From: Mytilus trossulus
Taxonomy: Eukaryota
DNA: 64,000 nt
Assembly (NCBI RefSeq): GCF_036588685.1
Contig: NC_086378.1
Span: 69,998,001-70,062,000 of the forward strand
Direction of reading: 5' to 3'
Shown here: positions 7,596-33,128 of the stretch, piece after piece
Position numbering within the stretch: the first letter of the stretch is position 1
How the letters are laid out: each line of letters begins with the position of its first letter
Notes under the pieces: model-generated
What the model was told of the DNA's origin: nothing
Seen by the model: the letters and a program-made list of their open reading frames with translations, nothing else
The model's database searches: none
Position numbers and translations under genes: made by a program

Positions 7596-7603
7596 TATAT
7601 AAA
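7596..7603 (+). promoter_or_regulatory. TATA box of mfp-3
   Basis: TATATAAA 79 bp upstream of the ATG at 7682. Confidence 0.6.
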
Positions 7604-7681
7604 GCGCAGAAAATATTCAGCCAGAATTAGAGTATTTCTCAGCAATCAGCATATCCAGGCAAACGGTTAGATTAAGAAGCA

Positions 7682-7748
7682 ATGAAGACATTCAGTTTCG
7701 CAGTTATAATGGCTTTAGTCCTTATTGGATTATTTGCTGTGCAGAGTG
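7682..7748 (+). CDS. mfp-3: Mussel foot protein 3, exon 1 (signal peptide MKTFSFAVIMALVLIGLFAVQS)
   Basis: Matches the mfp-3 signal pattern ALVLIGxFAVQSDA; phase-1 donor GTTAGT at 7749. Confidence 0.93.
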
Positions 7749-8530
7749 GTTAGTAAGCTTTGCTTTATTAAAGTGGTTCATTATTTTTAAGTATTTATTT
7801 TTTGATAATTGTCACCTAATATATTACAACTCACGATTCCTGGTAGCGCCATTTGTCGCATATGGCTAGTTTGGTATAATATATCTTAAAATGTATCGAT
7901 TCTTATACAATCTTGGCTTTAAAATATTTGGCTTTACCCTTTCCTGATAGACGTTGATTTTTTAGAAGTGCTTAAAACGCAGAAAGTTTATAGTATGACG
8001 TGTTGTTTTCAACTTATTTTTCCAACGTAGAATGTTATCTTTGAATTATATGAAATGTTGGACTGGTTTTGATAAGCAAACTAGCTATACGCAAGAATCC
8101 ATTTCTTTTGTAAAAGGCTTTGTTATTTTCAAAATACCAGTTGTATCGGAAAAACTTGTTCTTTTCGTACCAACAAATTGGAAAAGTATAACTGCAACAA
8201 ATAAAAAAAATAAGAACGTAGTAATTTGTATCTAAAATAAAGAAGTTTGTCCTTACTATGTTTCACTAATTTGATACTTGTTGAATTTTGTTTTATACAT
8301 TATAGCTCTGTTATTGTTACCTGTTTATATTTTCAAAATTCTCATATATAATTTTCCTATTAGAATTTTTCTATAACATGACAAATCTTATGATAGAGGA
8401 TATAAGAGATAGTAACGCTATTTTTTTATATTTATCTATTTTTTTCAAATCTATTTCATTTCAAAGATACAAAATTCCGACATTGATAAAACAAATTTTT
8501 CATATTCTTTGTTTTATTTATTTTATTCAG

Positions 8531-8541
8531 ATGCAGGTTAT
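8531..8541 (+). CDS. mfp-3: Mussel foot protein 3, 11-nt microexon 2 (D-A-G-Y)
   Basis: ttttattcAG|ATGCAGGTTAT|GTAAGT completes SDA|GY and keeps the frame into exon 3. Confidence 0.88.
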
Positions 8542-9420
8542 GTAAGTATGAAATATCTGAAGTTTGTTAGACGATTTGAATTGCGCATAACAGGAACATG
8601 GCCACTGTTACATTATAGTTCGTTTCTCTGTGTGTTATATTTCAGTGTTGTGTCTCTGTTGTGTCGTAGTTCTCTTATATTTGATACGTTTCCCTCAGTT
8701 TTACTTTGTAACCCGGATTTGGTTTTTTCTCTCTCCAAGTCAGGAGCTTTTAACTAAATGGTTGTCGTTTGTTTATGTGTTGCATATATGTGTTTCCTTA
8801 TTTTGTTTACGTAAAAAGGCCGTAAGTTTTCTCCTTTAAATGATTTAACATTTTGGAGCCATATATATATATAGCTGACTATGCGGTATGGGCTTTGCCA
8901 TAACAACTATCCACAAGACACTAAAAGGACACAAAAATTAACAACTATAGGTCACCGTATGGCCTTCAACAATGAGAAAAGCGCATACCAAACAGTCAGC
9001 TATAAAAGGCCCCGAAATGATTAAACATTATATACAGTAATATAATGTCAAAATATTTTCAAATATGACTGCTTTTATATTTGTTTTTTTTTAATTTCGA
9101 ATTAAAATGAATATTCCTGTAATAAACTAGCTTTGCAGTGACTATAAGTCGTTCAGATATTTGTTCTTCGGTCTTGTTGGATAGATGTATGAATTTTCAG
9201 ACATAATTCTTCTAATTGTATATTCAGCTATTTGCGAATATTTAAACAAAAATTGCCTTGTGTTATAGTCCATCCTCCTGATCCGAATCCTCGTCATCGA
9301 TTATTATACATTTCTTCTGTCTTTCATTTAATCTAGTGTTGAAGTACATTTTTACGCCACCGTTGTTTTCTCATTATATTTAGTTTCAAGGTGATATAGT
9401 ATTTCTGATAAAACATATAC

Positions 9421-9625
9421 ATAGTTGTCGAAAGTACCAGGATTATAATTAAGTACACCAGACGCGCGTTTCGTCTACATTAGACTCACCAGTGACGCTC
9501 ACATAGAAATATTTATAAAGCCAAACAAGTAAAATGTTGAAGAGAATTTAGGATCCAAAATTCCAAAAAATTGTCCCATAAACGGCTAAGGTAATATATG
9601 TATGGGATAAGAAAATCCTTAGTTT
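9421..9625 (-). mobile_element. Retrozyme copy with minimal hammerhead (core CTGGTGA variant) in mfp-3 intron 2
   Basis: On -: GCGTCA-CTGGTGA-GTC-taatgta-GAC-GAAA-CGCGCG-TC-TGGTGT; flanks match 58574-58814. Confidence 0.75.
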
Positions 9626-10648
9626 TATAAATCACAATTCCAAAGACCGTATCATGATTTGATTATTTGTTAGATAATTCAAAGTTTGGAAACTTAATTG
9701 TATGTTGTAAACTTCTATCCAATCGAAATTGAAATAATCAATACAACAGATACAGTTTAGTGATCACAGGCCCTCTCTATCTATCACGAATGTCCCCTAC
9801 CAAATGATATTATATACTTACATGAGCAACGCAGAGAGTTTTATATTTGAAGTTGTGTCACCTAACTCTTCCTTGGTACCCAGAATCATATTTGGTTTTT
9901 GTCGTGAATAGTGTTGCTCTGTTTTCAGTTTCCCTTTTATTTAGGCATTGTTGTATCGTTTTGATCGTTTTTCGTTTGTTACCTATTGTAATCTGTTCGA
10001 CTTTCCAGCTGGAATAATCATTTTTTGTATCTTTTGATTGTCCTTTGGAAGGGCGTGTCATCGTTATCAATCTACCAGTTTTCGGTATTGAAAAGTCAAT
10101 TACAAATTCACCGTGTAACAAATGCAAAATAATTTCAAAGAAATATTTTGTTTTTATCAAAAAAGGAACTTTCCACTTCGTTAAATGCCAATAGTGCATA
10201 ACGTATTGATCAAGTTTTTTTTTTTGAAGGATGATATATTAATATATTATGTTTGCGTTATTCTTTCGTGGTATGAATACAATCTAAATTAACTCATCAT
10301 AAACACCATGACGTAATACATTTGAAACATAACTGCAACATATATTCAAATGTTTATATTGAGGTATTTGAAAAGTTCCCCGTTTATAGTTCCCCGTTTT
10401 ATAATTTACTGTATATGAACATTAATTTGTTTATATAGCGTCACGCGTGATAAGTAAACCAATCTGATGAATCACATGGGAGAATAAATTCTTATTCTAT
10501 AATTCATACTTCAGATTAACAGTTCCTGAAATGTTCATCAACAATTATATATGGATTTGATATATCTCACAGCTATAGATATCATAGAGTGATGAGTTGC
10601 TTTATATTTCAATATCATTATTATTAAAGATAAAGCATATAAACTTTA

Positions 10649-10800
10649 ACGCCAGACGCGCGTTCGTCTATACAATGTCTATAAGACTTATCAGTAACGC
10701 TTGGATCGAAATAGTTAGAAAGCCAAATAAGTACAAATTTGAAGAGCATTGGTGACCCAAATTTTCACAAAGTTGCGCAAAATACGGCTAAGATTATCTA
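10649..10800 (-). mobile_element. Degenerate retrozyme copy ending ~50 bp before the mfp-3 exon 3 acceptor
   Basis: CGCCAGACGCGCGTTCGTC...GACTTATCAG followed by the AAGCCAAA..GAAGAGCATT..GGCTAAG body. Confidence 0.65.
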
Positions 10801-10850
10801 TTAAAATAATTTATTTAAACTTGATTGGTTTTTTTTTTCTCATATTTCAG

Positions 10851-10988
10851 GGTTATTATCCAGGATATAATTCACCATACAACGGTGGTTACCATGGTTA
10901 TAACGGATACACTGGATATCACGGAAATTATGGCTGGGGGAAACCCTGGAATAACGGTCCCTGGGGACGATATGATTATGGGAAATAA
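10851..10988 (+). CDS. mfp-3: Mussel foot protein 3 (slow type), exon 3: GYYPGYNSPYNGGYHGYNGYTGYHGNYGWGKPWNNGPWGRYDYGK*; 71-aa precursor
   Basis: tttcAG acceptor; Gly/Tyr/Asn/Trp-rich peptide with GYNGY, YHG and WNNGPWG motifs; AATAAA at 11049-11054. Confidence 0.93.
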   Translation, partial: GYYPGYNSPYNGGYHGYNGYTGYHGNYGWGKPWNNGPWGRYDYGK

Positions 10989-11381
10989 AGGCTATCTTTA
11001 GTAGCACAGAAGCAAGGACGACATCAATAATGATATGAATGTTCGATGAATAAAGCTTTATGTGATGTTTCTTAATTTTTTCTGGTTTTTTTTTTAGCCA
11101 TGTATGGTTGGGGATGATTGATTTACAAAAACAAACGTTTTATAAATTATTTGTGAATATTTGCAGAAGTCAAAAAATAATCTTGAAGTTTGATTTTTAT
11201 TTTTGATTGCTAAATCAATATTTCATGAAATAGCGCCTAGTTTACTAAGACAAAACATGATAAGAGCCATTTAAATAGCCATTAAAATGGTCAAAAGTAA
11301 ATTCGAGCCTTTCTATCCCAAATTCATGTATTTGTAGTACTGCAACTGACATCGATAAAGACGCTTAGTTAACGAGTTTAA

Positions 11382-14300
11382 TGGTCCGGAAGAACACACG
11401 GCTGCAAATTGTTTTAAATGATAAAAATATATCTATATTTTAATTTCCGTCGGGTCGTAAAAAGTTTCTATGGTCACATTTTTATATTTTATCCCTTTAT
11501 TTGGGTACCCCTCAATTAACGGTTTTGGGTAGTTACCTTAAAATCCAAAAATATATTTTTTGGTTCAATTTCCCGCTATTTTCGTAAATATTGTCTATGC
11601 ACATATCATCAAGGATCATCGAAATGATGAAGACATAAACATAATACCATCTCCAAGTAAAACTTTCAAACTTTAAATTGGCTGTTTTTTTTAGATTGAA
11701 AATTAACGCTTTATCCTTTAAAACAAGAAAACATATGAATATAAAAACAGTATATGATATTTGAGAGGACAAAACATATTATTGCGATACTGCATGCAAA
11801 TTTTGTTGGACAAATTCCAAACTATTTTGTCAAAAACTCAAAAATAAAAACATCATTAGTACCTTTTTTTAGTATGGAAATTTCCTATCCGTCAATCAGC
11901 TCCACCATTTATTTTTTCCTTCACACTCAATTTGATAGTTTCGATGTGATTATGTAGATTTTGTAGGGAAAGTTAATTTATTTTTGAGTGATTTGAATAT
12001 GCATAAAAGTTCTTTCGTGCATTTTCTCTAAATAAGTTATTTTTGGGTAATAAAATTTTGACTTTTTATAAAAGTTCACCAAATCCTTCGGATAAGAGGT
12101 TTTTCCGGATAATGATATTATGTGAAAATACATTGCATGTCAATGCTTAACCTCAGAGCAATTAATATGCATGCAAGTGGTCGGGGGAAAGTACTATTGA
12201 AGTTTTGCAGAGATTTGGTGTGTGACAAGGTGATGCTAAAACCAACTTCTCTTGATATGTTGCTTTCCTTGGGCGAATCATCAGTGATGATATGAGACTT
12301 TCACCAGAAGACAAATTTGGTGCGTCTTTAAATTAGATTGATTGATTAATTGTTGGTTGCTCAACGTCCAGTGGCAAATAGGTCAAGCATGTGCAGGACG
12401 AGAAGAAGTTAACAATAAAAACAATAGGTACTAGGTTTTGTCATAATAGAGGCCATTCGGGATTATGGTCGGGAAAATTCAGACTGCCACTGGAAAAAGA
12501 TGGTATTTTGGATTGGGATAGAATTTTCCATTGCAACAGGCCACCTACGGACCCCTCAAAATGTTGTTGCAAGGGTTTTTAACGTGAAAAGAACGTGGCA
12601 CCCCCTTTACACAAGTCATCGGATTTAACGTCCTCATTCTGGTCGGACGTGACTGCGAACTTGATACATCCCGCACAGCCAAACGGACGCCCAACTTCGT
12701 TTTACTGCCGGTCGGGAGAAGACCAAGTGACCATTTTTCGTTTCCCCAGTCACCCTTTGAGAACTTTAAATTAGAAACAACAGACATGTATCCTAACAAC
12801 CTGACACTTTTATACGATCTCGCGCTCAGTTTCTTCTTTGTAGTTTGGATATGAAAACAGGGTTTTTGTGTAAAAGAAAAACCTTTAAAAAAAAGTACAC
12901 AAAACCGAGTCCTCTAAACGTGTTGACAGTCTTTTAAGTTGTACTTATTAATGTAAGTAATAAGACTTATTGAAGTTAACACCTGTGCAATTTAAAAGTA
13001 AAACAGTTACTGAAAAATAGAATTTGAACTTGCTGTCAGTTCATTATTAACGATTGTTAGTGATGTGATTTGTTCTTCCATAGGAAAAAACCTTTCTCAT
13101 GTAGCACACCCTCTACATATACCGATCACTTTTACCCAAGATTGTCTCTGATGCTTACCAAACTGCCTAACTTTAGAACTAACTAGATATTGTAACACCT
13201 TACAATTCAGACACAGTGGGGCCAAGGGATATGAAATATAGAGTTTAGTTCTGAACTCAATATAGATGCCTTATCTGCTGCAGGAAAATTGAAGTCTAAG
13301 TCTATGTTAAGACTTTCAGAATAACACCAAGGTGTGTCTGAAAATATCAAGAATACAATAAAAGAAGAACAATTACTTCACCCTGCCACTAGTGTTACTA
13401 TGAGCTATGTACTCGTTTTGGTATTTCTATGGGAATGATGCCCGCATAGCTTCTTAATAGATATAGGAAGATGTGGTATGAGTGCCAATGATACAACACA
13501 CCATCCAAGTCACAATTTATAAAAGTAAACCATTAAAGGTAACGACCCCGTCTTCAACACGGAGCCTAGGCTCAAAAGTTCATGTGTTAGTTAATTGATG
13601 AAAAATAACACAAAGGCGCTTCTGAACCGTATATTGTCCCTAAAGATGACAAAAAAAATCATAAATGTATGACTATTACAGAATCAATCGTTTCTGTAGC
13701 AACATTCGTCCCATTAAATTTGGGATTGGCAGTGCAGATATATCATGCATATGCTTATGGGAATAAGGGTCACGAACATTGATCGAAACTTTGAACTCAC
13801 ATTTCTTTTGTGTTTCCTATGCAAAGGTAAGACTACAACTAACGAGTTTGACCGAATATTGACGGTATTTACGCTCCAGATAGCATTTGTACTCAAAAAC
13901 TGTGTTTGCTTTAAACAAACTCTGTCCTGCGCCGAACATTTTCTTATAAAAAAGGGAAGTGTCTTGTAATGCTAATACGCGTACTGAATCCACACATGAT
14001 GACTAAGAGATTGATGCATGTCCCTATTTAATGAATACTTGAGTTATTGTGTGTCGCTTTTAAAAGTTATATAAGGATCATGACTGATTTTGAATTACAA
14101 CATTAGACAATTGGCATTGCAATGTACAATTTGTCATCCTTCCCTTAAAAAATGAATGAGTTAACTTCTTTACCAGGATTATCCCACTAAAAAAATTATG
14201 CATGCACCAAACTGACTTTGTTTTACACTCAATTTTTTTAAAACCTCGCATGCGCCTCGGGTGATTAAAGTATATTTTGTGTTATAACTGCTCTGTCCAG

Positions 14301-14860
14301 ACTTTGCAAAAACACAATATGTAAAAAAAACACAACCTTTAAGATGCAAAATTAAAAACACTGTTTCAGCGCTTGAATTTTGTTTTTTTCAAAGATAGAA
14401 AAAAATATTGAAATAATTTTATAAACTGGTGTTTTAAAGTTTAGAAAATAATTCTGTAATATACTATAGTGAAACACTATATACAATATGAAAGTTTATG
14501 TATGTGAAAAGGTCAAGGCCACTTCTTCTTTAGATATGTCTAAAAAGAAAAAAATCAGATGGTTCCAAATCAACGCCATTTTGTAATGGCAGCTCTTCAT
14601 ATAAGTAGACAAATTTGTCGTTTTAACATCGTTTATAGCATATGCTTATGATTGAATCGTTTTTGTAGCATTCTATTGAATAAATATCAGAATATTTCTC
14701 CTTTTTATCCTTGTGGTTGAAATATATTTTTAGGTCTCACCTTTGACCTCATTTTAACAAAATTGTGACCACTCTGGATTTTTACCACCCAACTTTTCTT
14801 ATTGTACACGTTTTCCTCTTTCCATCGATATATAATTAAGGTGTGTGTTCTTCCGGACCA
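11382..14860. mobile_element. 3.5-kb TTAA-specific DNA transposon derivative (Kolobok/piggyBac-type target), no intact transposase
   Basis: 18-bp TIR TGGTCCGGAAGAACACAC (11382-11399) / GTGTGTTCTTCCGGACCA (14843-14860); TTAA on both sides. Confidence 0.8.
12335..12760 (-). repeat. SINE/LINE-like 3' tail with (CAAT)n, nested in the TTAA element
   Basis: GATTGATTGATT..GGTTGCTCAACGTCCAGTGGCAAATA; a similar core occurs near 36285. Confidence 0.45.
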
Positions 14861-15548
14861 TTAAAGTTTTAAAAAATGAACTTTGGTTGCAGTACTATTG
14901 GTTTTGATGTTATATTTGTTATTCTCATCTATTTTGTATAATGCTACGCCCGTTTCTATGTGTGTTACATATTAATGATTTGTCGTTGTTCTCCTCTTAT
15001 ATTTAATACGTTTCCCTCAGTTTTAGTTTTTGATCCAGATTTTGTATTTTGTCCATCGATTTACCAGTTTTGAACAGCGTTATACTACTGTTGCCGTTAT
15101 TTCATACTTAATTAGAATGATGAATGAAAAGGTCAATATATAATCTTGTCTCTTTAGTGACAAAGAGTCAATAGGAATGTCACCGTGACGTCATAGCTTT
15201 CGGGAAACGTTTATGCTAGTGTGTGTCCAAAATTTAAATGAGCAGCAAGAGCTTTACATAAACGGATATTTTGAACACATTGTTTGGTTAAGCTGTTGGT
15301 CATGTCTAAATATTAAAATGACTGGATATCTTTTTATCTCTTTATTTTATGCGGTATTCTTTTGTTAATGCGTATTAAGCTACAACCAGTTAATTTTGAT
15401 TTTTAAATAGTGAAAAAGTGTTTTGACAAAAGCTATATGTGCTTTCAATGTAAGGAATAAAGCATGAATAAACCCATCATGAGTACCTGGAATGGAATTT
15501 TGTATTTGTGTCAGACTCCCGTTTCGTCAACAATATCACTGTGCTTAA

Positions 15549-15683
15549 ACGGCCGTGGGTAACTTAAGTTAAAATCCTATCAATATTTTCATAGACCATG
15601 AAAAACGTTGCAAAAAATAGATTTCGTATCAACTATCATCTCAACGAGTTTAGAGTCCGCCATCTTTAGTTACCCACGGCCGT
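15549..15683. mobile_element. 135-bp MITE inserted in a retrozyme remnant (~15476-15830)
   Basis: Perfect 16-bp TIR ACGGCCGTGGGTAACT / AGTTACCCACGGCCGT. Confidence 0.75.
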
Positions 15684-17646
15684 ATGTTTCCCCAAATACA
15701 GCGAGAGTAATATATTCTTCAGGTAGAAAACCTTAGTATTTCAAAATTTCAAAGTTTTTTTAACAAATAATAACCAAATCAAAGACAATCCATGTCAACC
15801 CAGAAGTGCGGACTACTGGGCTGGTGATAAAATTGCATTAAGAAAAGAACACAATAGAAGCAAGTTTAAGTTTGGATCTGATATACGTTCACTTATTCAA
15901 GAACGGCAAAAAAGAATATACAACTTAAAGTAAATATTGTAGCGGGCTGAGGGTTCCAACTTCCGGTGACAGACGACTTTCTTATAAGCGTTGTGTGTCT
16001 GATAATTTTATATACCTGAAAACAGGTCGTAGGTTGCGTATTCAGAGGATTGATATTTGTATTTGCTAGTGTAGCACCCTACGAATCTGTAATCAGTACC
16101 GAGTTTGAGTCTTGTATGACTTTTATATAATGATACTGAATAAAGTAAATGATTTAATAACGAAAATAATTATGGTTTATACAGGCTGACCAATATACAT
16201 ATATAAATAAGTATAGCAAATTTACAGTTCTAACATTGTTGGGTTGATGTTAAGACGAGTTGTATATACATAATGTACACAGCCATGTATCATCATCATT
16301 GCTGGTGATCCGATGGATAAATCTGTTGTAGAGTTGTCACTGACTCAGACGTACTCATAAATAAGTATACTTGTAGTATTAACAATTAAAACACTATTGG
16401 CTGCTTTCGTAATGTGTGGTGCACCTAAAACTGAAGTGAGAAAAGGGGGATTAATATATGGGTACTACTGGCAATCTTGGTAGTTAGCTCTGGTATCAAA
16501 ATATGGTAGACACAAGGGTATTAATAAAAATAGTACACAGTAATTCTAGCAATAAAATATTTCTCTGATATTATGATTGTTCGTATAATTACCGGTTTAT
16601 TATCTCTGTGAGTGTCAATCTACTTTATACCTTTGGCCTTCAACAAATGATAATAAATATTATCTTTTAATAGTAGAATTAATTTCAATAAAGCAACTTT
16701 ATATCAAATTTCGGATATCTATTTTCCCCAAAGGGATTGAACCTATTTTCATAGAAATGATAATTTAGCAGTGTCGGGACCGTGTCGTGTCGAGACACAG
16801 TTATGACAGTATATTATCTTTAATAAAAGCTAACTGTATTCTTTATGAGGATAAATTATTTGTTATAGATGAAATGAATCGAAATTACTTTCGACACTAA
16901 TGTTAATTGTACCCACCTTAACGACAATACGACAATATAATTGTGCAAATGGAGACTTTAAATATTTGGATATGGTGCTCAGAAAAGACAAGACTGAACC
17001 CGAGAGTTGCGAACTTCCGTATTTATAATGAGTACGACACGGTGCGACACAAAGTTCGTTAAAGACATAACGCCAATAGCATGGTAACGTCTGTGACGTC
17101 ATGCCACCTGTGCTATCCCAAGATGCAATACGATAACGTCAACAATAATGGCTGACGACAATTTAACAACACAGACCGATTCGTGCAACATTAATGCTGC
17201 ACAATACCTTTTAAATCCCTAAAAATATACGCTTAACACCCACGAAAAATGCAAACTAGTATCAAGTAAAGGTAAGAAGCACATTTCATAATAATTTAAT
17301 ACTTTTATAACTTTAATAACGTGAAAAAGATATTGTGGGTCCGATGCCATTTCACCGGTGATCACGTTCAGTATTTCTGTACTTGACAATGACAATATTT
17401 AATAAAAATATCCCTCATAAACTTGAATCTCCCCCGGGACAGGCCGCGGCCGTTACAGTTTTTAACTTAAACTCCATGTGCATATAACTGTAACTTTAAC
17501 ACAAAGAAAAGCGTATTTATTACTTTGGTATCAAATAAAAGCTTAAGGAATCAAGATAATTGTAGAACCCTTGTTGGAATTTCTCTTGAATAGTCACTTG
17601 TTTTATTTTTACTACAGAAGTTCCGGGAAATCAGTGTGCCCTTATA

Positions 17647-18174: not shown

Positions 18175-18687
18175 TTCAATTAAAATTTGACACCCCATAT
18201 CCGGATAAGGAATGATGTTGATATTTAATGGTTGTCGCTTTATTTGAACATAAAAAGCATAGCTGTTAATGCATGAATTGCTTGCAAAATCTAACATTCG
18301 CAGCTATGGAGAATATGAATTAGTTGTATAATCAGGGTTGATATTTTACCTCAAACTATTACTATGTTATATGTATTCATAAAATAGTTTATTTGGGTTC
18401 CTAACCTATTTAAACTAACAGTATTGTCAGTGAAATGAAACCGTGCTAGCGTGACTTGTATACTTTTTCTATACCAACACACAACGTAATTAAACTAAGA
18501 TGGTATTTTTTGGTTGAATAGAATTAACAATTTAATCAGGTTGTAAATATTCGTATTTATATTCATGCAGAAAAAATTGTCGTAAGATGAAGAGTCAAGT
18601 GGGAACTTTCATTTATTGAGTATAATTTACAATATAATCCTGTTGTTACTTTTTGTGTATAACTACCATATGTTTCGTAATGCAATA

Positions 18688-18696
18688 TATATAAAA
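18688..18696 (+). promoter_or_regulatory. TATA box of mfp-5
   Basis: TATATAAAA ending 37 bp upstream of the ATG at 18733. Confidence 0.6.
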
Positions 18697-18732
18697 GGAG
18701 GACTTTTCAGTTCAAGCCCCAGATCAGCCAAC

Positions 18733-18790
18733 ATGAAGCTTAGTTGTTTAGTATTGATGCTCTTTCTTGCAACCTTAGCAGTTTTATTCG
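18733..18790 (+). CDS. mfp-5: Mussel foot protein 5, exon 1 (signal peptide MKLSCLVLMLFLATLAVLF)
   Basis: Matches the mfp-5 signal MKLSCxVLxLFL; phase-1 donor GTAATA at 18791. Confidence 0.92.
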
Positions 18791-19185
18791 GTAATATTTT
18801 ACTTCAATAACTTAGTTTTATTATATGATATATAACGGGCATACATGAACTAAACTATCTTCGATGATAACCAATTTTGATTATTTATTCACCAACAGGA
18901 TTTTTTGTAACACAGAATATTATTGAATTTGTTTGTTCCTAAGAACATATTACAGGTTTTAAAGACAATTTGCAAATATTTCAGTGATATTTCGAAAATC
19001 CAGCGGAAAGAGACAGTTTCGACTTACCTTTTGAACAATACATAAGACCTGTTTGAAATTTTGTTACACAAATGTGTTGTTTTTAATCCATAAAATTGTG
19101 AATTTGAGGTTGTGCGATAAAAGAAACGCCAACAAATTAAAATCGATAACAGTCAGATCCATAATACGACATGACATTAGCCTTG

Positions 19186-19236
19186 ATGAAGCTAAGTTGT
19201 ATAGTCTTGGTACTTTTTCTTGCAACCTTACATTGA
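19186..19236 (+). pseudogene. Truncated duplicate of mfp-5 exon 1 (MKLSCIVLVLFLATLH*)
   Basis: ATGAAGCTAAGTTGTATAGTCTTGGTACTTTTTCTTGCAACCTTA aligns to 18733-18777, then hits a stop; no splice donor. Confidence 0.85.
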
Positions 19237-20952
19237 AGTTAATTAATATGTTATTATTATATATCATATCGGATATCTCATTCAGCAGGGCAAAACAGAG
19301 CAGATAGTTCTCGAACTAACTTTATTAAATACCAAATATTTCATTCAAAATAAAAGAAAGATGAGACGAAACACAAACAAATATGGATGCGGAATCACAA
19401 CAATCAAAACTGTTATGGTAATTTTTGATTTTGCGAGTCTCAACCTTAGATCTTGAACAGTACATAGTAACTAGCCAGAACCTTTTAATCTTGTTAATCA
19501 TGACAGTATTATCATGATAGCATGATTACCTCATCTGATTAAAATGTCCTGAATTGTGCCATTGGTTTGTCTACATTTGGATGTCACCATAGGGGACATA
19601 AACACATTTAAAGCAAACCAACTGTTAACCTAAACAGCTATATGGTTTCGCTTAAGTGTCGTGTATAGTTCCTTATACTAGGCTTAACGAATGTGATTTC
19701 AATTCATGTATAGTTCTACATACTTTGCTTTATATGCTACTAGTTTCAGATAATGTTTTTTCTTATATTCAAACAAAAGTTGTTTTTATTATTGGACATA
19801 TAGCAAAAACTCAAATAACCAGTACTGTAATGAGATTCATTATTTTTTCTACCTTAAAATTTGATGTTTAATTCTTATTTCTCAATATTACTATCCTTCA
19901 CATGAGAGGATCCCGGAATAACATGAAAAAAAGTACAATATAAATAGAAAAATTCCATCATTATAATTCTGGTACCTTTGATAACTGTATACACTTATAT
20001 CGAGAAATTTGTTTGACAAGTATAGTTGATTGATTACATGCAACATTCATCACTATTATGCTATTTTGAGGAGGTACATTCACCAAAGCTCCGTGCAAAT
20101 ATGAAGAGCAGTTGTAGGTTGGAGCAGTAATGAATATCAAAATTTTTTTTAAATATAGACCAGTTTTGACTATAAAGGAAACAAAATGAAAAAAATGATA
20201 ATGAAATAAAATCTCGGTAAATCAGCTAGCTCTTCGTATATAAACATATGTAGAGAAACATAAAAAAAAATTGAAGACAGTAATTTTATGCAATCATTTT
20301 TAATTGACGAAAAAGTATACCGAATGTATTTTGATTTAATAATATTAAATAAAATGAAATTAATGAATTCATATTGATCTTAAACATCAGTTTTAAGGGC
20401 CATTAACATTGCCGCTACTATTATGTAAAAGACATGATTTTCTAGGTGTTTTCAATCAACATAAAAAAGTAGAATTGGAATATTACAACGAAAATATAGG
20501 AATTTACAATTCGTTTGTACTGATGAATTAAATTTGATAAATAGTATGATCATGTTTTCTTTATAAACCTATTTAATACATATAAGACCTTTGGTTCACC
20601 CGTTTGAATGGTTTTCGCTAGTAAATTTTTGGACTCTTTATAGCTTGCTGTTCGGTGTGAGCCTAGGTTCCGTGTTGAAGGCCGTACCTTGCCCTATAAT
20701 GGTTTATTTTTATAAATTGTTACTTGGATGGAGAGTTGCCTCACTGGCACTCAACCACTACTTCCTATATCTATATACCGATTATTGACAATTTAAATTT
20801 GTTCAAGTAAAAGTATACAAGTCTTTTTATGAAGTAAGAAAATAATGATTACATTGTGAAGCCCGAAATTAAAATTTCTGCATGACTTTGTTGAAGAATT
20901 CCAAATTAAGCTCACATTTATCTATCTGTGAACTGTTTTATGTATTTTGTAG

Positions 20953-20975
20953 ATGTAGGCACATCGAGTTCTGAA
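20953..20975 (+). CDS. mfp-5: Mussel foot protein 5, 23-nt microexon 2 (D-V-G-T-S-S-S-E)
   Basis: tttgtAG|ATGTAGGCACATCGAGTTCTGAA|GTAAGT; corresponds to the DVGSSSSE region of mfp-5. Confidence 0.9.
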
Positions 20976-22443
20976 GTAAGTATACGTTTTGACAATAATA
21001 TAATGAATAATTCGTTCAGAAAAGATTGAACTCAGAAAAAACTATTGAAAAAATCTGCATTTTTTATTGTTTATATTTTAAACAAATCTGTAATGGGTTT
21101 GTATCTTTTAATTGCCATACAAGTGGGAGTATTAGATTTCTATAAAACCAGGTTGAATCCCCATTTTCTACATAAGAAAATTCCTGTACCAAATTATGAA
21201 TATATCAGTTGTCATCCATTCATATGATGTTTTTGAGCTTTTGATTTTGCAATTGGCTAAAGGACTTCCGGTTTGGATTTTTTTCTCGGAGTTTGGTATC
21301 TTTGTTATTTAACCTTATTCAGACATTGGATGTTATTCAGGATCTTTACATTGGAAACATACTCATTATTCCTGTCAGTTTGTATATCCCTCAGCCGAGA
21401 AAACAAGTCAAACAATATAATTAATTCAGAAGAAAATACCGTTTAAATAAAAACTTTTATTTAGGCTTAGCAGGTAGTCATAATCATATATATACATATG
21501 TCAAGAATATAAGACAAATGAAATACAAAGTGATCATAGATTATAACTGACAAATAAACTAAATTAAAGAACTACTAAGTAGTATCTTCATAAATTTAAA
21601 GAATGAAGCATAACAAATTAAAAATTCTATGAAATACAAATGAAATATAAATTTCATACCCGCCTCGTACAAACATATTCCACCTTAAGGGAATGGGAGG
21701 GAGGGTTTTGAAAAAAGAACAAACGACGAAACACAATGCTCTTTAACAAATTGGCTACGCTGATAGAAGTTTCAACGACAAACTAAGACATATTTAAACA
21801 TAAAAATTCTAAATTATTAAAATGTTGACTACCTGTTTTCTGGTGTTTCTGAAAAGTGAAATTCAAAAGTGAGTTCTACTTTTAAATTGAATTTTTTATC
21901 CAATATAAATTACTGTACTGCGTGACCAATAAAAAACGAGTATAATTTAATTTAGAAAGCAGAGCAACTAAACCTTGACCAGATATGTGCTCACTGTTAA
22001 ATGAAGTGAGACCAATTGTCCATTTACCAGTTCACTAAATTGTTTTTCTGATTCTTCATTAATTAATCATTTTTAATCAAAAATTTACAAATTAATTCAG
22101 AAGAAAATACCGTTTAAATAAAAACTTTTATTTAGGCTTAGCAGGTAGTCATAATCATATATATATACATATGTCAAGAATATAATACAAATGAAATACA
22201 AAGTGATCATAGATTATAACTGACAAATAAACTAAATTAAAGAACTACTAAGTAGTATCTTCATAAATTTAAAGAATGAAGCATAACAAATTAAAAATTC
22301 TATGAAATACAAATGAAATATAAATTTCATACCCGCCAAACCGAAGGTCCGCCAAAAAAACAACAAATCACAGAAACTGCAAATTGCAACTTTTATAATA
22401 ATTCTAAAATAATAAGAAAGTAAGTCTACACCATCTTCTATAA

Positions 22444-22514
22444 TCCAAGTCGAGGACTCGAACCTCGATCCCCCATCACAAGGACAGGTGTACTAACCAT
22501 TGTACTAACAAGGA
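22444..22514 (-). ncRNA. tRNA-like cloverleaf (tRNA-Asp-like scaffold, altered anticodon loop) inside the Ngaro element
   Basis: TCCTTGT TA GTAC AATGGTTA GTAC A CCTGT CCTTGTG ATGGG GGAT CGAGG TTCGAGT CCTCG ACTTGGA (71 nt). D, anticodon and T stems fully pair; acceptor 5/7; Pol III A and B boxes present. Confidence 0.75.
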
Positions 22515-22705
22515 TGCATGATAGAGTCAACAGTGTAAACCCTCTAGAATAATAGAAAAACAGGATCAAAAATCTACTCTCTCTCATGCGGAGATTAAGA
22601 GTAAACCTTCTCCTAAAATTAAGCTGCAATTTACCAATATAATTTGATTTTTAAATTCTTAATCAAGTTTCAAACACAAATAAAATTCATTCTACCTTAA
22701 AGGAT

Positions 22706-23233
22706 TTAAACATGTGCAAGAGTATTAGCTATAAAGCTAAAAACCTTATTAAGACCAGTGGTGGACAAATTCAATTTGTCAACTGTAAACAAAGTGTTAA
22801 TTGGCTTTCTCACTCTACTATAAAAAGTCTTCTCACATTGCATGTATTTGACATCAGTTAGAGAGGAAGCCAGCTGTTTTAGTACATTGTTAAAATTAAT
22901 GACGAACAATTCAGACTGATTAAAATCACATGGTCTGGGTAATACAGAAGATAAGATAATAACACAATCTGGATTACAAATTCTCAATTCATGTATAATA
23001 TCACGAATGTATTTTTCAAATAACTTAGCATCTATATTAAATACAACATTTGTACCAACATGTACAATTATATTATTAAAATGGTACCAAGTGAATACCC
23101 TGTTTTTTAATTTCCTTAAAAGCATTTCACAACTCAGACCCCCAAAGGCCTGAAGTTGCGTATTCCTCATCTCTGGAAGATACTTTAAAATTGAATCTGA
23201 TATAACTAAACTGGGTTTACCCCATGCCTTCAA
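22706..23233 (-). CDS. SGNH/GDSL-type hydrolase ORF of the Ngaro element
   Basis: Block I ISDSIL, block III VHVGTN, SSVLPR, block V DKLNL (expected DxxH). Confidence 0.8.
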   Translation of the reverse strand: MKAWGKPSLVISDSILKYLPEMRNTQLQAFGGLSCEMLLRKLKNRVFTWYHFNNIIVHVGTNVVFNIDAKLFEKYIRDIIHELRICNPDCVIILSSVLPRPCDFNQSELFVINFNNVLKQLASSLTDVKYMQCEKTFYSRVRKPINTLFTVDKLNLSTTGLNKVFSFIANTLAHV

Positions 23234-23294
23234 ACCTACAATATAATTTAAATTATTAACTAATAAAATTATAACACCAAATAAAAAACAAATA

Positions 23295-24314
23295 TTACAG
23301 TCGACACATCATTTTTGACGAGACTTGCATCTTATCATTTAAACCATATCTAAGATACAATTTATAGGCGTCACTCTTCCAATCCCCTTGTAATTGAATG
23401 AGTTCAGAAGATACACCACATTGGAATGCCCAAGTTGCACCTCCTCTTCTGAAGCTATGAGAAGAATATTTTGTTGGATCTAACCCAATTTTCTCCACAA
23501 TGTTTTTCAAAAAAATCTGTAACATATTGTAGGACACTGGATTAGTTTTTCTACCAGATAAAACAAGAAAAGCTGGGGAAGATGCTAAAGCAGGAAATTT
23601 TGCGCACATGGCATTAAATGCACTAAAAGCACACAACGGAGAGGATAAATTTTTAACAATTGGTATTTCTAAAACTCTCTCCCCAAATTGTATAGTCTTA
23701 GACCAACAAAACTGAACTAGTAAATAATCTTCCAAAACTGAAATATTTTCTCTATGCAAACATTTAGAGCTATCATCTACTGTCCCAACCAAATTGGATT
23801 TTCTACAAATCAAATAGAAAGCAAAAAGAAAAATGCACCAATATGTGTAACTATTGATATCATCAAAATTTAATTCCTCCCTTATTTTTAATAAAATACT
23901 AGGTGTGATTGGAAGAGCTGCCCGAACTGTGTGAGGATTGCATCGTTTTAATCCCTTCATAAACAATCTAAAATAGAATGACTCAAAATGAATAAAAGGT
24001 AGATCAAAAAGTAAATGTAACACCTTAACTCCATTCAGATAATTTCTGATTGAGTCTACACTTTTGAATGATCTACTTAAAAATTGTGCAAACAAGCAAA
24101 GTGTATTTAACTCGCAAGGCAATGTCTTTAAATTATAAAAATGACAAAACAGGAAAAAGGCTTTCCACTGTATCTTTAAATTTTTTCTAGTTCCTGAAGC
24201 GTGTGCAGATTTCAAAGATTCTTGTGCTTGTGTTTTAAGCATGTGAAGATCTACAGATAAACTATGTTCACCAATTGTGACAGAATCTGAAAAAATTTGA
24301 ATCTGCATTAACAT
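23295..24314 (-). CDS. Tyrosine recombinase of the Ngaro element
   Basis: Catalytic set present: CRKSNL (R), SKT (K), HSFRRG (HxxR), GDW, AYKLY (Y). Confidence 0.93.
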   Translation of the reverse strand: MLMQIQIFSDSVTIGEHSLSVDLHMLKTQAQESLKSAHASGTRKNLKIQWKAFFLFCHFYNLKTLPCELNTLCLFAQFLSRSFKSVDSIRNYLNGVKVLHLLFDLPFIHFESFYFRLFMKGLKRCNPHTVRAALPITPSILLKIREELNFDDINSYTYWCIFLFAFYLICRKSNLVGTVDDSSKCLHRENISVLEDYLLVQFCWSKTIQFGERVLEIPIVKNLSSPLCAFSAFNAMCAKFPALASSPAFLVLSGRKTNPVSYNMLQIFLKNIVEKIGLDPTKYSSHSFRRGGATWAFQCGVSSELIQLQGDWKSDAYKLYLRYGLNDKMQVSSKMMCRL

Positions 24315-25977
24315 GTTGAATATTTCTACCTTCTATTGCTTCATAAAACTGCACAGAGTAACTATCTGACAAACTCCATCTGGACAACATATCTGGTAAC
24401 CTATTCTCAATACCGTCTATATGAATAGCTCTTAATTCACATTCTTTAATTGCACAAATAAAACATATTTCTCTAAGACAAGCTTGTAAAAAACGACTCC
24501 TTGATTTCCCTTGATTGATAACTTGAACTGAAACCATATTGTCACACTGAATACATATCTTTCTGCCTCTTTGTCCCCACAATTTCAAACACACAATAAC
24601 TGACAATAATTCCAAAGCATTTATATGTAAGCTTTGCTGTACAATGAAATCTGGAAACACACAGTGAAAAAACTGTCCATTTGAAACTCCTCCACAACCT
24701 ACCAAACATGCATCTGAAGCCATATACTCGTCTGGTTCTGTCCACTCTTGAAGATTTAACAGTGAAACACCATTATATATCTCCAAGAATTCTGACCACC
24801 AGAGAAGATCATGCTTCAATTCCTCGGAAACCTCTAAAATACAATTCTCATTTTTAAACTCCCTAAGAAAATTTAAAATTCTTGATATAAAAATACGACC
24901 TGGTCGAACACAACTAGCAATAAAATTCAGTTTTCCTATTAAGGACTGTACTTCTTTTAAAGATGCTGTGTCTTTGTTTAACCAAAATGAAACTAAGTCA
25001 AAAATCTCCAATAATCTATCAGGAGTAACTTCCATAGTCATTTTTTCCGTATCAAACCAGACACCTAAAAAACTCATTCTGTAAGAAGGACTACTCGCTT
25101 TCTTTACAGATTCTTCCAAACCACAGCTATCTAAAACCCATTTCAATTTTGTATATGAAATATCTGCTTTTTCACTTATTTCAGCACCAGCAAAATCATC
25201 TAAATAATTTGTCAAAGATATTTCATGCTTTTTGGCTATAAATCTGACAGCATTAGTCACTGACTGACAAATAAAAGCACTAGATTTTAAACCCATAGGT
25301 AAAACTCTATCAATAAAAAAATGACCTTTCCAGGTAAAACCAATTAAATTATAATCTTTTGGATCTACTGGAAATTGTCTATACGCTCTGCGCAAGTCCC
25401 TTTTAAAAATTTTACAGAATTTCCCTTTTTCTTTAATAATTTCAATAAAATTATCCACATTAGGATAATGTAGTTCTATATGTTTACCTAAATAAACATT
25501 TTTATCAATTCCATCATTGACAGATTTGCCCTTCGGAAAACTCAAATCCATGATAACTCTCCTTTCTTCCGAGTTTGCCTTTGGCACAGAATTCAAAGGA
25601 GATATTACCAAAAGATCATTAAACGGGTTTGATGCAAAAGGACCTAGTACGGCACCATAGCCTACCTCCTTTTTAATATATTTATCAATCTCTTTGGCAA
25701 AATTTCTTGCCCCAGTATGATTTTTGACAATTTTACTGTTTCCAAATTCTTCAAATTTTCTATCAAAACCTAAAGGCCAACCAAATTCTAACATATCACA
25801 GATTTCTTGATCGTTATAATCAAATAATTCTTGTCTCCAAAACTTAATACATAATTTAGAATAAACTGGAACTTTAAATAAATCAAAATTATATCCTGGA
25901 ACGCCAATGAAGGAATTGTGCAAATTCAAAAACAAATTTTGTTCTGGTAAAATAACTTCAAAAACTGCAATACACAA
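24268..25977 (-). CDS. Reverse transcriptase / RNase H of the Ngaro element
   Basis: RRVIMDLS, DLRRAYRQ, LPMGL, YLDDF; RNase H SDAC, HINALEL, CDN. Overlaps the YR ORF by 47 nt. True start is uncertain. Confidence 0.95.
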   Translation of the reverse strand: MCIAVFEVILPEQNLFLNLHNSFIGVPGYNFDLFKVPVYSKLCIKFWRQELFDYNDQEICDMLEFGWPLGFDRKFEEFGNSKIVKNHTGARNFAKEIDKYIKKEVGYGAVLGPFASNPFNDLLVISPLNSVPKANSEERRVIMDLSFPKGKSVNDGIDKNVYLGKHIELHYPNVDNFIEIIKEKGKFCKIFKRDLRRAYRQFPVDPKDYNLIGFTWKGHFFIDRVLPMGLKSSAFICQSVTNAVRFIAKKHEISLTNYLDDFAGAEISEKADISYTKLKWVLDSCGLEESVKKASSPSYRMSFLGVWFDTEKMTMEVTPDRLLEIFDLVSFWLNKDTASLKEVQSLIGKLNFIASCVRPGRIFISRILNFLREFKNENCILEVSEELKHDLLWWSEFLEIYNGVSLLNLQEWTEPDEYMASDACLVGCGGVSNGQFFHCVFPDFIVQQSLHINALELLSVIVCLKLWGQRGRKICIQCDNMVSVQVINQGKSRSRFLQACLREICFICAIKECELRAIHIDGIENRLPDMLSRWSLSDSYSVQFYEAIEGRNIQHVNADSNFFRFCHNW

Positions 25978-26016
25978 TTTACAATGATCTTTCTTATGTA
26001 AACATGCATTTAGTAG

Positions 26017-27551
26017 TCAGGCTTTTTTATTTGGGCAATTGTCTGAACACTCCGGGTGTGTTTTTTGGATATGTTCTTTTTGCCAACATGAAGCACATAT
26101 GTGATGCACAGTTCTTGTTAAACCTCTAATAACTGTAGTGTGAGTTGAGTTGCTGTGCTCACATTTATTGCGTTGATACTTAACACAAAACCAAATTTGC
26201 TCTTTACCATTCTGGTTTTTGGACACTGATCTAAAATTGGCTTGCCGCACTTCTTTTGGCAAACTTTGTCCACTTAACATAACATTTTCCAAAATCTGTG
26301 AGTCATCAGACCAAGTTTTTCTACCTAATTCAATTAATCTTAACCAAGCGGCGTAAAATTCTAAAACCGATGCCCAGTTATAAATGGAGCTAAAGTATGC
26401 GATTTTCTGTAATAATTTTAAACGTCCTTCTTTTTCCAATTTATTTTTGCAGAAATTATTTATAATTTCAAGTTCACCTGCAACAAGCATTTTAAAATGC
26501 AATTGCTTAAACTCCAAATCTTTACTCACATACTCATATTGTAAAAAATTATGTGGAAAAGACTGTGGATTTATAACTTTATCTGCAGATTTTATTTTAA
26601 GTCCTGACTTTAACTTTTTACTCTTTTTCCTTGATGATAATTTCGCTGACAATTCATAATCAGATGAATCCTCAGAGCTGGAATTTGAACTTGTTTCAGA
26701 TTCAGACTCGGTACTACTGTTCACTCTCAATACAGATTCAGGCAACTGTACTACCTTCTGAGATTTAGAATCCAAATGTTTTTCTTATGTTGAGTAGTTT
26801 AAGAAATAGAACCCTTAGCTAAATTCATTTTTTTTAATTGCTGCAATAACTCTTGTTCATTTGTTACTTTTTCGCTTTTAAATTTCACATTTTTCTCTTT
26901 TGAAGTTTCAGCGAGCTCGGACTTTCCACTAAATTTAGTGTCAAAATCCAAACCTAACCTCTTCAATTCATCATTAACCTCTTTATTTAATTTATCATTA
27001 GCTCTTAAATTTGTTAAAGTGATCTCACCCTTTGATTTCTTTGATTTCTTTTTGGGCTTTTCTTCTGATTTTGATAGCCCATCCACTTTCGCCTCTTATT
27101 CTGTGATACGTTGGTTGAGCTGCTCCCTCTTGAGTCTTTGTTTCTTTTCTTCTAATAGCTTAACTCTTAATTCCAGCTCTTCATCGGACTCCCGAGGTTT
27201 CAACTCTTCACACTCTTTGCTATTTTTCTTGAGGGGCGTGATGAATATCAATGCTGCGGCCTCATTTATCTTATTATTCTCATCATCTGACATAAGATCA
27301 AGCATGTCATCTTCCTCTGCATGCAGTTCTAATTCATCCCGATCTGAGTTATTATCGGCCATTTTCTGAAATACATACTCATATGCCATGTCATCTATAC
27401 CAGACGTTCCAAAATTATTAAATTTTTTATAGTCTATTATCGCGACTTTTCTCTTAATAGGACGATTCATAACTAACGAAAAATTAAATACAAGTAACAA
27501 AAGCTGTACAAATCTCAACGACGACAACAAGCGTTGATAAAAATTGAACAA
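26017..27551 (-). pseudogene. Gag-like ORF1 of the Ngaro element, broken by one in-frame stop and a frameshift
   Basis: Segments 27551-27096 and 27086-26799 share a frame across a TAA; 26775-26017 is in another frame and ends in a Cys/His-rich region (CVKYQRNKC...HHICASC...HPECSDNC). Confidence 0.75.
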
Positions 27552-28644
27552 ACGACGAAATGCTCAAGTTGAATAAATACTATATATAATTCGCTACATA
27601 AACGATGATTCTTTCTGAAGAAATGAACAAACGACGAAAAGCTCAAATCAAATCAAGAATAACTTTTGAAAAAAGAACAAACGACGAAACACAATGTTCT
27701 TTAACAAATTGGCTACGCTGATAGAAGTTTCAACGACAAACTAAGACATATTTAAACATAAAAATTCTAAATTATTAAAATGTTGACTACCTGTTTTCTG
27801 GTGTTTCTGAAAAGTGAAATTCAAAAGTGAGTTCTACTTTTAAATTGAATTTTTTATCCAATATAAATTACTGTACTGCGTGACCAATAAAAAACGAGTT
27901 TAATTTAATTTAGAAAGCAGAGCAACTAAACCTTGACCAGATATGTGCTCACTGTTAAATGAAGTGAAACCAATTGTCCATTTACCAGTTCACTAAATTG
28001 TTTTTCTGATTCTTCATTAATTAATCATTTTTAATCAAAAATTTACAAAATACTGTCTTATCAAAAAAGGATTGCAGTTGCCGTTTCGTCATCTGTTTAT
28101 ACAGCATGTATGACGTCTATTAAGATTATTGATTTCTATTCTTATAATAAAACAAATATTTAAAAAAACAAAATTGTAATACAAACTTTTTAGTGGCAAT
28201 ACTACATATATAATTTAAATAGTGCATGATAACAGTAGAAAGTTTATCAACAAAATCAACACAAATACCAATATTTGATTCTTTGATTAATTTGACAAAC
28301 TTAAGAAAATATTATAATAGTAATAAACATAGACAGTCTAAATGGTGAAGATATTTTTATTACTGAAATGTTTACTTGTATGTGGTTATTGTACAAGCTT
28401 GAGCCGGCAAGAGTACTCTCGTTAGGTTGCTTTATTTGTATGAAATATTATTTTTTTCAATTAATAAATTGCCCTTAAAGACAGTGTTCTAAAGCTGTAA
28501 TATTTTAAGATTGTTCACTTCTTTTTTTATCAGTATATTCAATATTCAGTTTATCCTATGATGTAGTTTCTTATGTAGTTTATATTAAATTGTGCTGCAG
28601 CTGCATTCTTTACAATTTAATAGCAGGATTTAGTTTTTCTTCAG

Positions 28645-28857
28645 GAACACAGTGGCGGTTATTACCCAGGCAATGCGTACCACTATCATTCAGGTGGTAG
28701 TTATCACGGATCCGGCTATCATGGAGTTTATAAGGGAAAGTATTACGGAAAAGCAAAGAAATACTATTATAAATATAAAAACAGCGGAAAATACAAGTAC
28801 CTGAAGAAAGCTAGAAAATACCACAAAAAGGGTTATTATGGAGGTGGTAGCAGTTAG
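28645..28857 (+). CDS. mfp-5: Mussel foot protein 5, exon 3: EHSGGYYPGNAYHYHSGGSYHGSGYHGVYKGKYYGKAKKYYYKYKNSGKYKYLKKARKYHKKGYYGGGSS*; 97-aa precursor
   Basis: cttcAG acceptor, phase 0; characteristic Tyr/Lys/Gly mfp-5 mature sequence. Missing from the ORF track. Confidence 0.97.
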   Translation, partial: EHSGGYYPGNAYHYHSGGSYHGSGYHGVYKGKYYGKAKKYYYKYKNSGKYKYLKKARKYHKKGYYGGGSS

Positions 28858-33005: not shown

Positions 33006-33128
33006 GTTTAACAATAAAGAATGTTATTGATGAAAGTATAGCTCCCAACCCAACTACTAATGTTACTATTCCTACATCAAACATGCCTGATGTGACAGCT
33101 GGCAAACCTTTTGTTGGACACTCGATCA
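33006..33128 (-). CDS. Ig-superfamily membrane protein, transmembrane exon (IECPTKGLPAVTSGMFDVGIVTLVVGLGAILSSITFFIVK)
   Basis: cccatAG acceptor and GTGAGT donor, phase 1-1; hydrophobic helix. Confidence 0.75.

What the first reader, a model, noticed from the sequence alone, without database searches (positions are those of the whole stretch)
7682..28857. mfp-3 and mfp-5 are neighbours with the same exon plan, suggesting common origin
Seen: the genes lie on the same strand, 7.7 kb apart. Both have a TATA box, a signal exon ending in phase 1 on the G of an Asp codon, a microexon starting AT (11 and 23 nt) ending in phase 0 with GTAAGT, and one mature-peptide exon. Both mature exons have GYYPG at or near the start (GGTTATTATCCAGG vs GGTTATTACCCAGG) and contain YHG motifs. 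Established: these are the two Dopa-rich interfacial adhesives, usually treated as separate families. Inference: an old tandem duplication produced a co-regulated adhesive locus.
Basis: partly seen in the sequence, partly recalled or inferred. Interest (0 to 1): 0.75.

Follow-up and report, generated by a model that had tools for sequence, protein, structure and literature searches.

The report
Mussel glue genes as likely siblings
Two well-known mussel glue genes, mfp-3 and mfp-5, sit side by side with the same three-exon layout and likely descend from one gene copied long ago, although their protein sequences are too diverged and too simple to prove it.

Summary
An mfp-3 gene (7682-10988) and mfp-5 (18733-28857) lie on the + strand 7,744 bp apart. 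Each has a signal exon ending in phase 1, an 11- or 23-nt microexon ending in phase 0, and one mature-peptide exon. Common origin is likely but unproven. For it: the microexon starts match at 6 of 7 bases (2 of 827 acceptor-like sites do as well), and a shared 5-mer near both exon-3 starts has a shuffle probability of 0.004. Against it: the signal peptides, promoters and UTRs are no more alike than chance, whole exon-3 similarity is borderline (p 0.05-0.12), and neither Pfam nor an mfp-3 profile over 1.84 billion proteins finds mfp-5. TATA boxes and phase-1 signal introns are generic, and co-regulation is not shown. The Perna test does not apply, because Pvfp-5 is EGF-like. Eight literature searches found no report of the linkage. 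Verdict: probably old paralogues (about 60%), a new example of a known pattern.

The parts
7596..7603 (+). TATA-like box of the mfp-3 gene, 86 bp before the ATG
   Evidence: the motif is common in this window
7682..7748 (+). mfp-3 coding exon 1: 22 signal-peptide codons plus the G of an Asp codon (phase 1)
   Evidence: 20 of 22 residues match P0011
8531..8541 (+). mfp-3 microexon, 11 nt (DAGY), phase 1 to phase 0, donor GTAAGT
   Evidence: the same residues join signal and mature parts in named foot protein 3 precursors
10851..10988 (+). mfp-3 exon 3, 45 codons, starts GYYPG; 11 Tyr, 13 Gly, 3 Trp, 3 basic residues; AATAAA at 11049
18686..18696 (+). TATA-like box of mfp-5, about 45 bp before the ATG
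18733..18790 (+). mfp-5 coding exon 1: 19 signal-peptide codons plus the G of an Asp codon (phase 1)
19186..19230 (+). truncated copy of mfp-5 exon 1 inside intron 1 (45 bp, 87% identical, followed by a stop, no matching donor)
20953..20975 (+). mfp-5 microexon, 23 nt (DVGTSSSE), phase 1 to phase 0, donor GTAAGT; carries the Ser-x-Glu motif
21419..28052 (-). Ngaro-type tyrosine-recombinase retrotransposon filling about 87% of mfp-5 intron 2; split direct repeats of 389 and 248 bp, 99% identical
28645..28857 (+). mfp-5 exon 3, 70 codons, GYYPG at codons 5-9, Lys/Tyr-rich tail; AATAAA at 28963 and 28972

Best explanation
These are a low-charge mfp-3 gene and the mfp-5 gene, neighbours with the same three coding exons and intron phases, and mfp-5 likely arose as an old tandem copy of an ancestral mfp-3-like gene that then diverged. 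Shown: position, exon plan and family identity. Inferred: the duplication predates the split of the two mfp-3 clades, since both clades share one signal peptide that mfp-5 lacks. Splice architecture would outlast sequence in such short Gly/Tyr-rich proteins, leaving traces only at the microexon start (D-A/V-G) and the start of exon 3 (YPG, then YHG). mfp-5 would then have gained its Lys/Tyr tail, and in the edulis group a Ser-x-Glu motif through change in the microexon. Both proteins act as first-secreted plaque primers (literature, not tested here).
For: Same strand, 7,744 bp apart, same phases 1 and 0 with a microexon. In M. californianus, RefSeq proteins XP_052062952-55 and -59 are mfp-3 and -58 is mfp-5, all on a contig of the same length. 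In M. edulis both lie on a contig of the same length. The microexon starts match at 6 of 7 bases, reached by 2 of 827 acceptor-like sites; acceptor plus exon start is matched by 0 of 827. Microexon plus 40 bp on each side: p 0.003, the lowest of 9 regions tested. Any shared 5-mer within the first 12 residues of both exons 3: 0.0036 by shuffle. Alignments anchored at the junction Asp gave p<0.05 in 17 of 30 low-charge mfp-3 x mfp-5 pairs (the pairs are not independent). D-x-G and YPG are kept in all 8 rows of a joint alignment.
Against: The signal peptides are not alike beyond chance (p 0.86), although they are the most conserved part within each family. Promoter, exon 1 DNA, three intron edges and 3' UTR give p 0.12-0.88, and the fourth intron edge 0.053. 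Whole exon 3 gives p 0.053-0.097 for protein and 0.12 after codon shuffling. Only 6 of 48 local pair tests reach p<0.05. With dipeptide-preserving shuffles the anchored count drops to 7 of 30, and to 1 of 21 for the basic mfp-3 clade. PF04202 hits 0 of 3 mfp-5 proteins. The mfp-3 profile misses mfp-5 among 1.84 billion proteins and scores it at -4.6 to 0.5 bits. hhalign probabilities are 39.5% and 10.3%. The anchored tests were chosen after seeing the match. Small residues near a signal cleavage site are constrained. Unrelated byssal genes can be neighbours in Perna.
Confidence: 0.6

Rival explanations
1. [quoted passage not shown]
For: No standard homology search links them. Signal peptides are unalignable. 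Phase-1 introns at signal cleavage sites are generic (PMC1626468; TSP1-C1q gene). In Perna, Col-P, PTMP and fp-1 carry consecutive gene numbers on one scaffold (PMC7971044). RefSeq names some mfp-3 proteins 'neuropeptide-like protein 30', which I read as a composition-driven match.
Against: It needs several coincidences at once: adjacency, a microexon in both, phase 0 at its end, a 6-of-7 base match at its start and YPG near the exon-3 start. The one control gene in the window shows no microexon in the model I read (n=1).
Confidence: 0.27
2. Chimeric origin. mfp-5 took its microexon and the start of exon 3 from a low-charge mfp-3 copy by partial duplication or conversion, but has a different signal exon and promoter.
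For: Similarity is confined to the microexon and the start of exon 3, and is stronger to the low-charge clade than to the basic clade (17 of 30 against 4 of 21). Exon 1 and promoter show none. Partial exon duplication does happen at this locus (19186-19230).
Against: Exon 1 has the same phase and role in both genes. Signal peptides can diverge beyond recognition. The intron part of the acceptor match is not special alone: 20 of 827 sites reach it, and a within-gene control is reached by 28 of 827.
Confidence: 0.1
3. The exon models are wrong (a microexon is mis-chosen), so the shared plan is an artefact.
For: No read-level confirmation was obtained here, and other candidate microexons exist (2 in gene 1, 4 in gene 2).
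Against: The spliced gene 2 equals RefSeq P0007 letter for letter and is collinear with the Mefp-5 precursor. Named foot protein 3 precursors carry DAGY between the signal and mature parts.
Confidence: 0.03

Closest known systems
Mytilus foot protein 3 (Pfam PF04202), low-charge clade
   Same: Gene 1 nests in this clade (support 100/99) as sister to M. galloprovincialis P0003, 85% identical; it has the same signal peptide and DAGY junction.
   Different: Nothing of kind; it is one more array member, with the short YDYGK ending shared with P0003.
Mefp-5 / mfp-5 (AAL35297)
   Same: Gene 2 exon 3 is 90% identical, with the same 3-part precursor and the Ser-rich start and Lys/Tyr tail.
   Different: A few substitutions and a slightly shorter tail. 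The genomic layout and the link to mfp-3 were not found described in the papers searched.
Vertebrate SCPP cluster (PMC4373244, passages read)
   Same: Works like it as a pattern: tandem secreted low-complexity genes related through a signal exon, a small exon carrying Ser-x-Glu and a large variable exon, rather than through sequence.
   Different: No homology. SCPPs derive from SPARC-L1 in vertebrates. Their all-phase-0 introns (recalled) differ from the phase-1 first intron here. Ser-x-Glu is absent from mfp-3 and from M. californianus mfp-5.
Perna viridis byssal gene arrays (PMC7971044, passages read)
   Same: Foot-protein genes occur as tandem arrays, and different byssal genes can be neighbours.
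   Different: Pvfp-3 and Pvfp-5 lie on different scaffolds and Pvfp-5 is EGF-like. No Perna protein came up in the mfp-3 or mfp-5 searches.

Membership tests
Mfp-3 (PF04202), gene 1 | Matches the family profile or nests in the family tree | tested here: met
   The spliced product nests among named foot protein 3 sequences. Its closest relative P0003 scores 56.3 bits against a cut-off of 22. Exon 3 alone gave no Pfam hit.
Mfp-3 (PF04202), gene 1 | Conserved signal peptide ending AVQS-DA | tested here: met
Mfp-3 (PF04202), gene 1 | Dopa modification and plaque-interface location | not testable with these tools
   Known for the family from PMC9999432; not measured for this gene
Mfp-5, gene 2 | Full-length similarity to the Mefp-5 precursor | tested here: met
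   90% identity over exon 3; spliced product identical to P0007 in the same 90% cluster
Mfp-5, gene 2 | High Dopa and phosphoserine | not testable with these tools
   18 Tyr and 7 Ser in exon 3; modification known from PMC9999432 only
mfp-5 as a member of the Mfp-3 family | Hit to PF04202 or to an mfp-3 profile | tested here: not met
   0 of 3 in Pfam; absent among 6 hits in 1.84 billion proteins; -4.6 to 0.5 bits locally
mfp-5 as a member of the Mfp-3 family | Shared signal peptide | tested here: not met
   p 0.86 for protein, 0.62 for DNA
mfp-3/mfp-5 as distant paralogues | Same coding-exon number and intron phases | tested here: met
   seen in this window only
mfp-3/mfp-5 as distant paralogues | Linkage conserved in other species | tested here: inconclusive
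mfp-3/mfp-5 as distant paralogues | Mature-exon similarity above composition controls | tested here: inconclusive
   p 0.02-0.12 depending on the null and the segment
mfp-3/mfp-5 as distant paralogues | Layout rare among unrelated secreted mussel genes | not testable with these tools
   No genome is held; one in-window control only
SCPP | Descent from SPARC-L1 in vertebrates | not tested
   Considered as an analogy only; not filed here
Ngaro-like retrotransposon (intronic element) | Split direct repeats A1-ORFs-B1-A2-B2 | tested here: met
   389-bp and 248-bp pairs, 99% identical, in that order on the minus strand; definition from PMC9210276
Ngaro-like retrotransposon (intronic element) | RT/RNase H, tyrosine recombinase, SGNH hydrolase after the recombinase | tested here: inconclusive
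   RVT_1 E 3.8e-10 passes its cut-off; Phage_integrase E 2e-5 and Lipase_GDSL_2 E 0.018 fall below theirs, in the expected order; no tree against PAT-like elements was built

The most novel reading that the evidence does not exclude
mfp-5, so far a family with no relative outside Mytilus, is the diverged sister of the mfp-3 array. The two main Dopa primers of mussel adhesion come from one gene at one locus, a mussel counterpart of the vertebrate SCPP cluster, in which the microexon is the part that gained the phosphoserine motif in the edulis group.
Probability: 0.55. Interest if true: 0.55.

Novelty: new member of a known kind. Interest (0 to 1): 0.4.

Why it matters
[quoted passage not shown] A shared locus and exon plan give a concrete origin story that existing chromosome-level assemblies can test directly. 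It also points to a region where more small, poorly annotated glue genes may lie, since RefSeq leaves these genes 'uncharacterized' or names them 'neuropeptide-like'. It would not change how the adhesives work, and divergent tandem clusters of low-complexity secreted proteins are a known pattern.

Tried and rejected
Read evidence: four runs laid on 7500-21300 were contigs dominated by repeats. None of the 15 joints shown (31 more hidden) matched an exon junction, so this says nothing either way. No whole genome is held, so synteny and a genome-wide control could not be computed. The M. trossulus ids LOC134721757 and LOC134721758 are consecutive, but P0007 is identical to the window's own product, so this is probably the same species and was not counted as independent. 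The Perna comparison was rejected because Pvfp-5 is EGF-like. TATA boxes, the phase-1 G and the GTAAGT donors were rejected as evidence because they are generic. The ESM Atlas gave no usable hit for mfp-5. Two long unnamed proteins hit by the mfp-3 profile (P0048, P0049) match only profile positions 5-39 in several stretches and were treated as noise. P0025 is an engineered 3-5-3 fusion by its sequence (compare Mfp-353) and was left out of all tests. P0004, P0009 and P0024 (partial or odd gene models) were left out of profiles, shuffle tests and the tree. P0014 was kept in profiles and the tree but dropped from the anchored test because its junction differs. No further mfp-3, mfp-5 or similar gene was found in the window; mfp-6 was not searched for by sequence. 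Structure prediction was not run, since these proteins are reported as random coil. Three look-ups in earlier scan findings returned nothing. The M. californianus foot-gland transcriptome paper was not available.
Full report
What is there. The window holds two small three-coding-exon genes on the + strand. Gene 1 has exons 7682-7748, 8531-8541 and 10851-10988 (71 aa; introns 782 and 2,309 bp). Gene 2 has exons 18733-18790, 20953-20975 and 28645-28857 (97 aa; introns 2,162 and 7,669 bp). The stop of gene 1 and the ATG of gene 2 are 7,744 bp apart. In both, exon 1 ends on the G of an Asp codon, the microexon (11 or 23 nt) begins AT and ends in phase 0 before GTAAGT, and the last exon encodes the rest. 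GYYPG is at codon 1 of exon 3 in gene 1 and at codon 5 in gene 2, and YHG occurs twice in each. A low-stringency tblastn with all short relatives found no other mfp-like gene in the 64 kb.

Identity. Gene 2 is mfp-5. Its exon 3 is 90% identical to the Mefp-5 precursor, and its spliced product is identical to RefSeq protein P0007 of M. trossulus, which makes that species the likely source. Gene 1 is an mfp-3. In a tree of 21 proteins it nests in the low-charge clade (100/99) as sister of M. galloprovincialis P0003 (96/89; 85% identity), and P0003 passes PF04202. The label 'slow' for this clade is recalled; PMC9999432 (passages) lists MFP-3s with lower Dopa and pI than MFP-3f. The junctions rest on protein evidence, namely the identity to P0007 and the collinearity with named precursors, and not on reads: one search was uninformative. 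Odd gene models in other species break at the same places. P0014 swaps four residues exactly where the microexon lies, P0009 inserts two residues there, and P0004 starts there. This hints indirectly at the same boundaries in those species.

Linkage elsewhere. No genome was held, so I used RefSeq accessions and contig lengths. In M. californianus, XP_052062952, -53, -54, -55 and -59 are mfp-3 proteins and -58 is mfp-5 (LOC127702694 and LOC127702696), all with contig length 122,239,455. Near-consecutive numbering suggests proximity but does not give order or distance. In M. edulis both lie on a contig of 97,338,103, but their numbers are about 3,300 apart, so only the chromosome is shared. With about 14 chromosomes (recalled) that alone is weak. 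M. galloprovincialis has at least four mfp-3 loci on one contig, but no mfp-5 was retrieved for it or for M. coruscus, so 2 of 4 other Mytilus species could be examined. The consecutive M. trossulus ids are not independent, but P0010 shows a second mfp-3 gene outside the window. Perna cannot test the idea: Pvfp-3 and Pvfp-5 are on different scaffolds, but Pvfp-5 is built of EGF-like repeats (PMC7971044, passages; its supplementary figures were not read and may show gene structures).

Which shared features mean something. TATAWAW is in 424 of 2,556 100-bp windows. Phase-1 introns near the signal cleavage site are in excess in secreted proteins generally (PMC1626468, passages). An unrelated TSP1-C1q gene at 45435 appears to have a signal exon ending in phase 1 on G and, in my reading, goes straight to a TSP1 exon (n=1). 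Four of 20 GTAAGT sites read GTAAGTAT. These features carry little weight. The microexon start carries more. Six of its first 7 bases match, which 2 of 827 acceptor-like sites in the window achieve, and 25 intron bases plus those 7 are matched by 0 of 827. The intron part alone is unremarkable (20 and 9 of 827; within-gene control 28 of 827). Of nine DNA regions compared with dinucleotide shuffles, only microexon plus flanks (p 0.003) and exon 3 (p 0.012, but 0.12 with codon shuffles) stood out. Promoter 0.41, exon 1 0.62, intron edges 0.053-0.66 and 3' UTR 0.88 did not. Any shared 5-mer within the first 12 residues of both exons 3 has probability 0.0036, but 0.10 if it may lie anywhere. These anchored tests were designed after seeing the match.

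Protein-level tests. Exon 3 against exon 3 gave p 0.053 (whole shuffle), 0.076 (segment-wise), 0.097 (dipeptide-preserving) and 0.023-0.027 for the first 28 residues of mfp-5. Six of 48 mature-region pairs reached p<0.05. Anchored at the junction Asp, 17 of 30 low-charge pairs and 4 of 21 basic pairs did, falling to 7 of 30 and 1 of 21 with dipeptide-preserving shuffles; the pairs share ancestry. The signal peptides are not alike (p 0.86). Pfam finds no family for 3 of 3 mfp-5 proteins. hhalign gives 39.5% over 6 columns and 10.3% over 10. An 11-sequence mfp-3 profile found 6 proteins among 1.84 billion, none of them mfp-5. Locally it scores mfp-5 at -4.6 to 0.5 bits, with shuffle p 0.04, 0.04 and 0.12; the whole-family profile gives 0.13-0.35. 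By standard criteria homology is therefore not detectable, and mfp-5 is not a member of PF04202.

How it most likely came about. The simplest account of adjacency, the same exon count and phases, a microexon with the same start and a weak collinear trace at the start of exon 3 is an old tandem duplication followed by fast divergence (0.6). The duplication would predate the split of the two mfp-3 clades, which share a signal peptide that mfp-5 lacks. mfp-5 would then have added its Lys/Tyr tail. Its microexon encodes a Ser-x-Glu motif in the edulis group, whereas M. californianus has Gly-Tyr-Asp there, so the motif likely changed within the microexon. mfp-5 phosphorylation is from PMC9999432, and the site is not shown here. 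Convergence plus clustering remains a real rival (0.27), since Col-P, PTMP and fp-1 carry consecutive gene numbers in Perna. A chimera of a different signal exon with mfp-3-derived downstream exons is possible (0.1). Co-regulation is not shown: both are first-secreted plaque primers (PMC12817120 and PMC9999432, passages), but their upstream DNA shares nothing beyond a TATA box.

Comparison and novelty. Both genes are long known. The pattern of a tandem cluster of low-complexity secreted genes related by exon plan is known from vertebrate SCPPs (PMC4373244, passages), which is an analogy and not kinship. [quoted passage not shown] The library lacks most subscription journals, and one key foot-gland paper was not held, so absence from print is not established. 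The linkage is also implicit in public RefSeq annotation. I rate it a new member of a known kind, interest 0.4.

Side result. About 87% of mfp-5 intron 2 is a Ngaro-type retrotransposon on the minus strand (21419-28052). It has split direct repeats at 99% identity and RT, tyrosine-recombinase and SGNH-like frames (definition in PMC9210276, passages). It explains the long intron and has no bearing on the origin of the genes.

Noticed in passing
window 21419-28052 (-): Young Ngaro-type retrotransposon inside mfp-5 intron 2: repeats 99% identical, long open RT (582 aa), recombinase (345 aa) and SGNH-like (200 aa) frames, with stops in the gag-like region. The Xenopus paper read describes the hydrolase ORF for amphibian elements; here it occurs in a mollusc. 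It may be polymorphic among mussels.
   Followed up: partly
window 19186-19230 (+): Truncated copy of mfp-5 exon 1 in intron 1. Its 15 codons match the M. edulis signal peptide at 14 positions, against 12 for the working exon, so the relic keeps the older state.
   Followed up: partly
window 45435-50160 (+): Secreted gene with a phase-1 signal exon, three TSP1 exons and a C1q exon; its role in byssus or immunity is unknown.
   Followed up: partly
window about 33000-38900 (-): Gene with at least three near-repeated Ig-domain exons and a likely transmembrane exon near 33084.
   Followed up: no
window 52499-54187 (-) and 55906-56907 (-): Fragments of reverse-transcriptase-like open frames, likely decayed retroelements (recognised by eye, not scanned).
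   Followed up: no
window 2197-2305 and 4906-5009: A direct repeat of about 105 bp brackets a 2.6-kb segment with a 157-aa minus-strand frame, possibly an LTR-type remnant (seen by eye).
   Followed up: no
P0017, P0029, P0045 (RefSeq, M. californianus): mfp-3 genes are annotated as 'neuropeptide-like protein 30' and mfp-5 as uncharacterized, so name searches miss this locus.
   Followed up: yes
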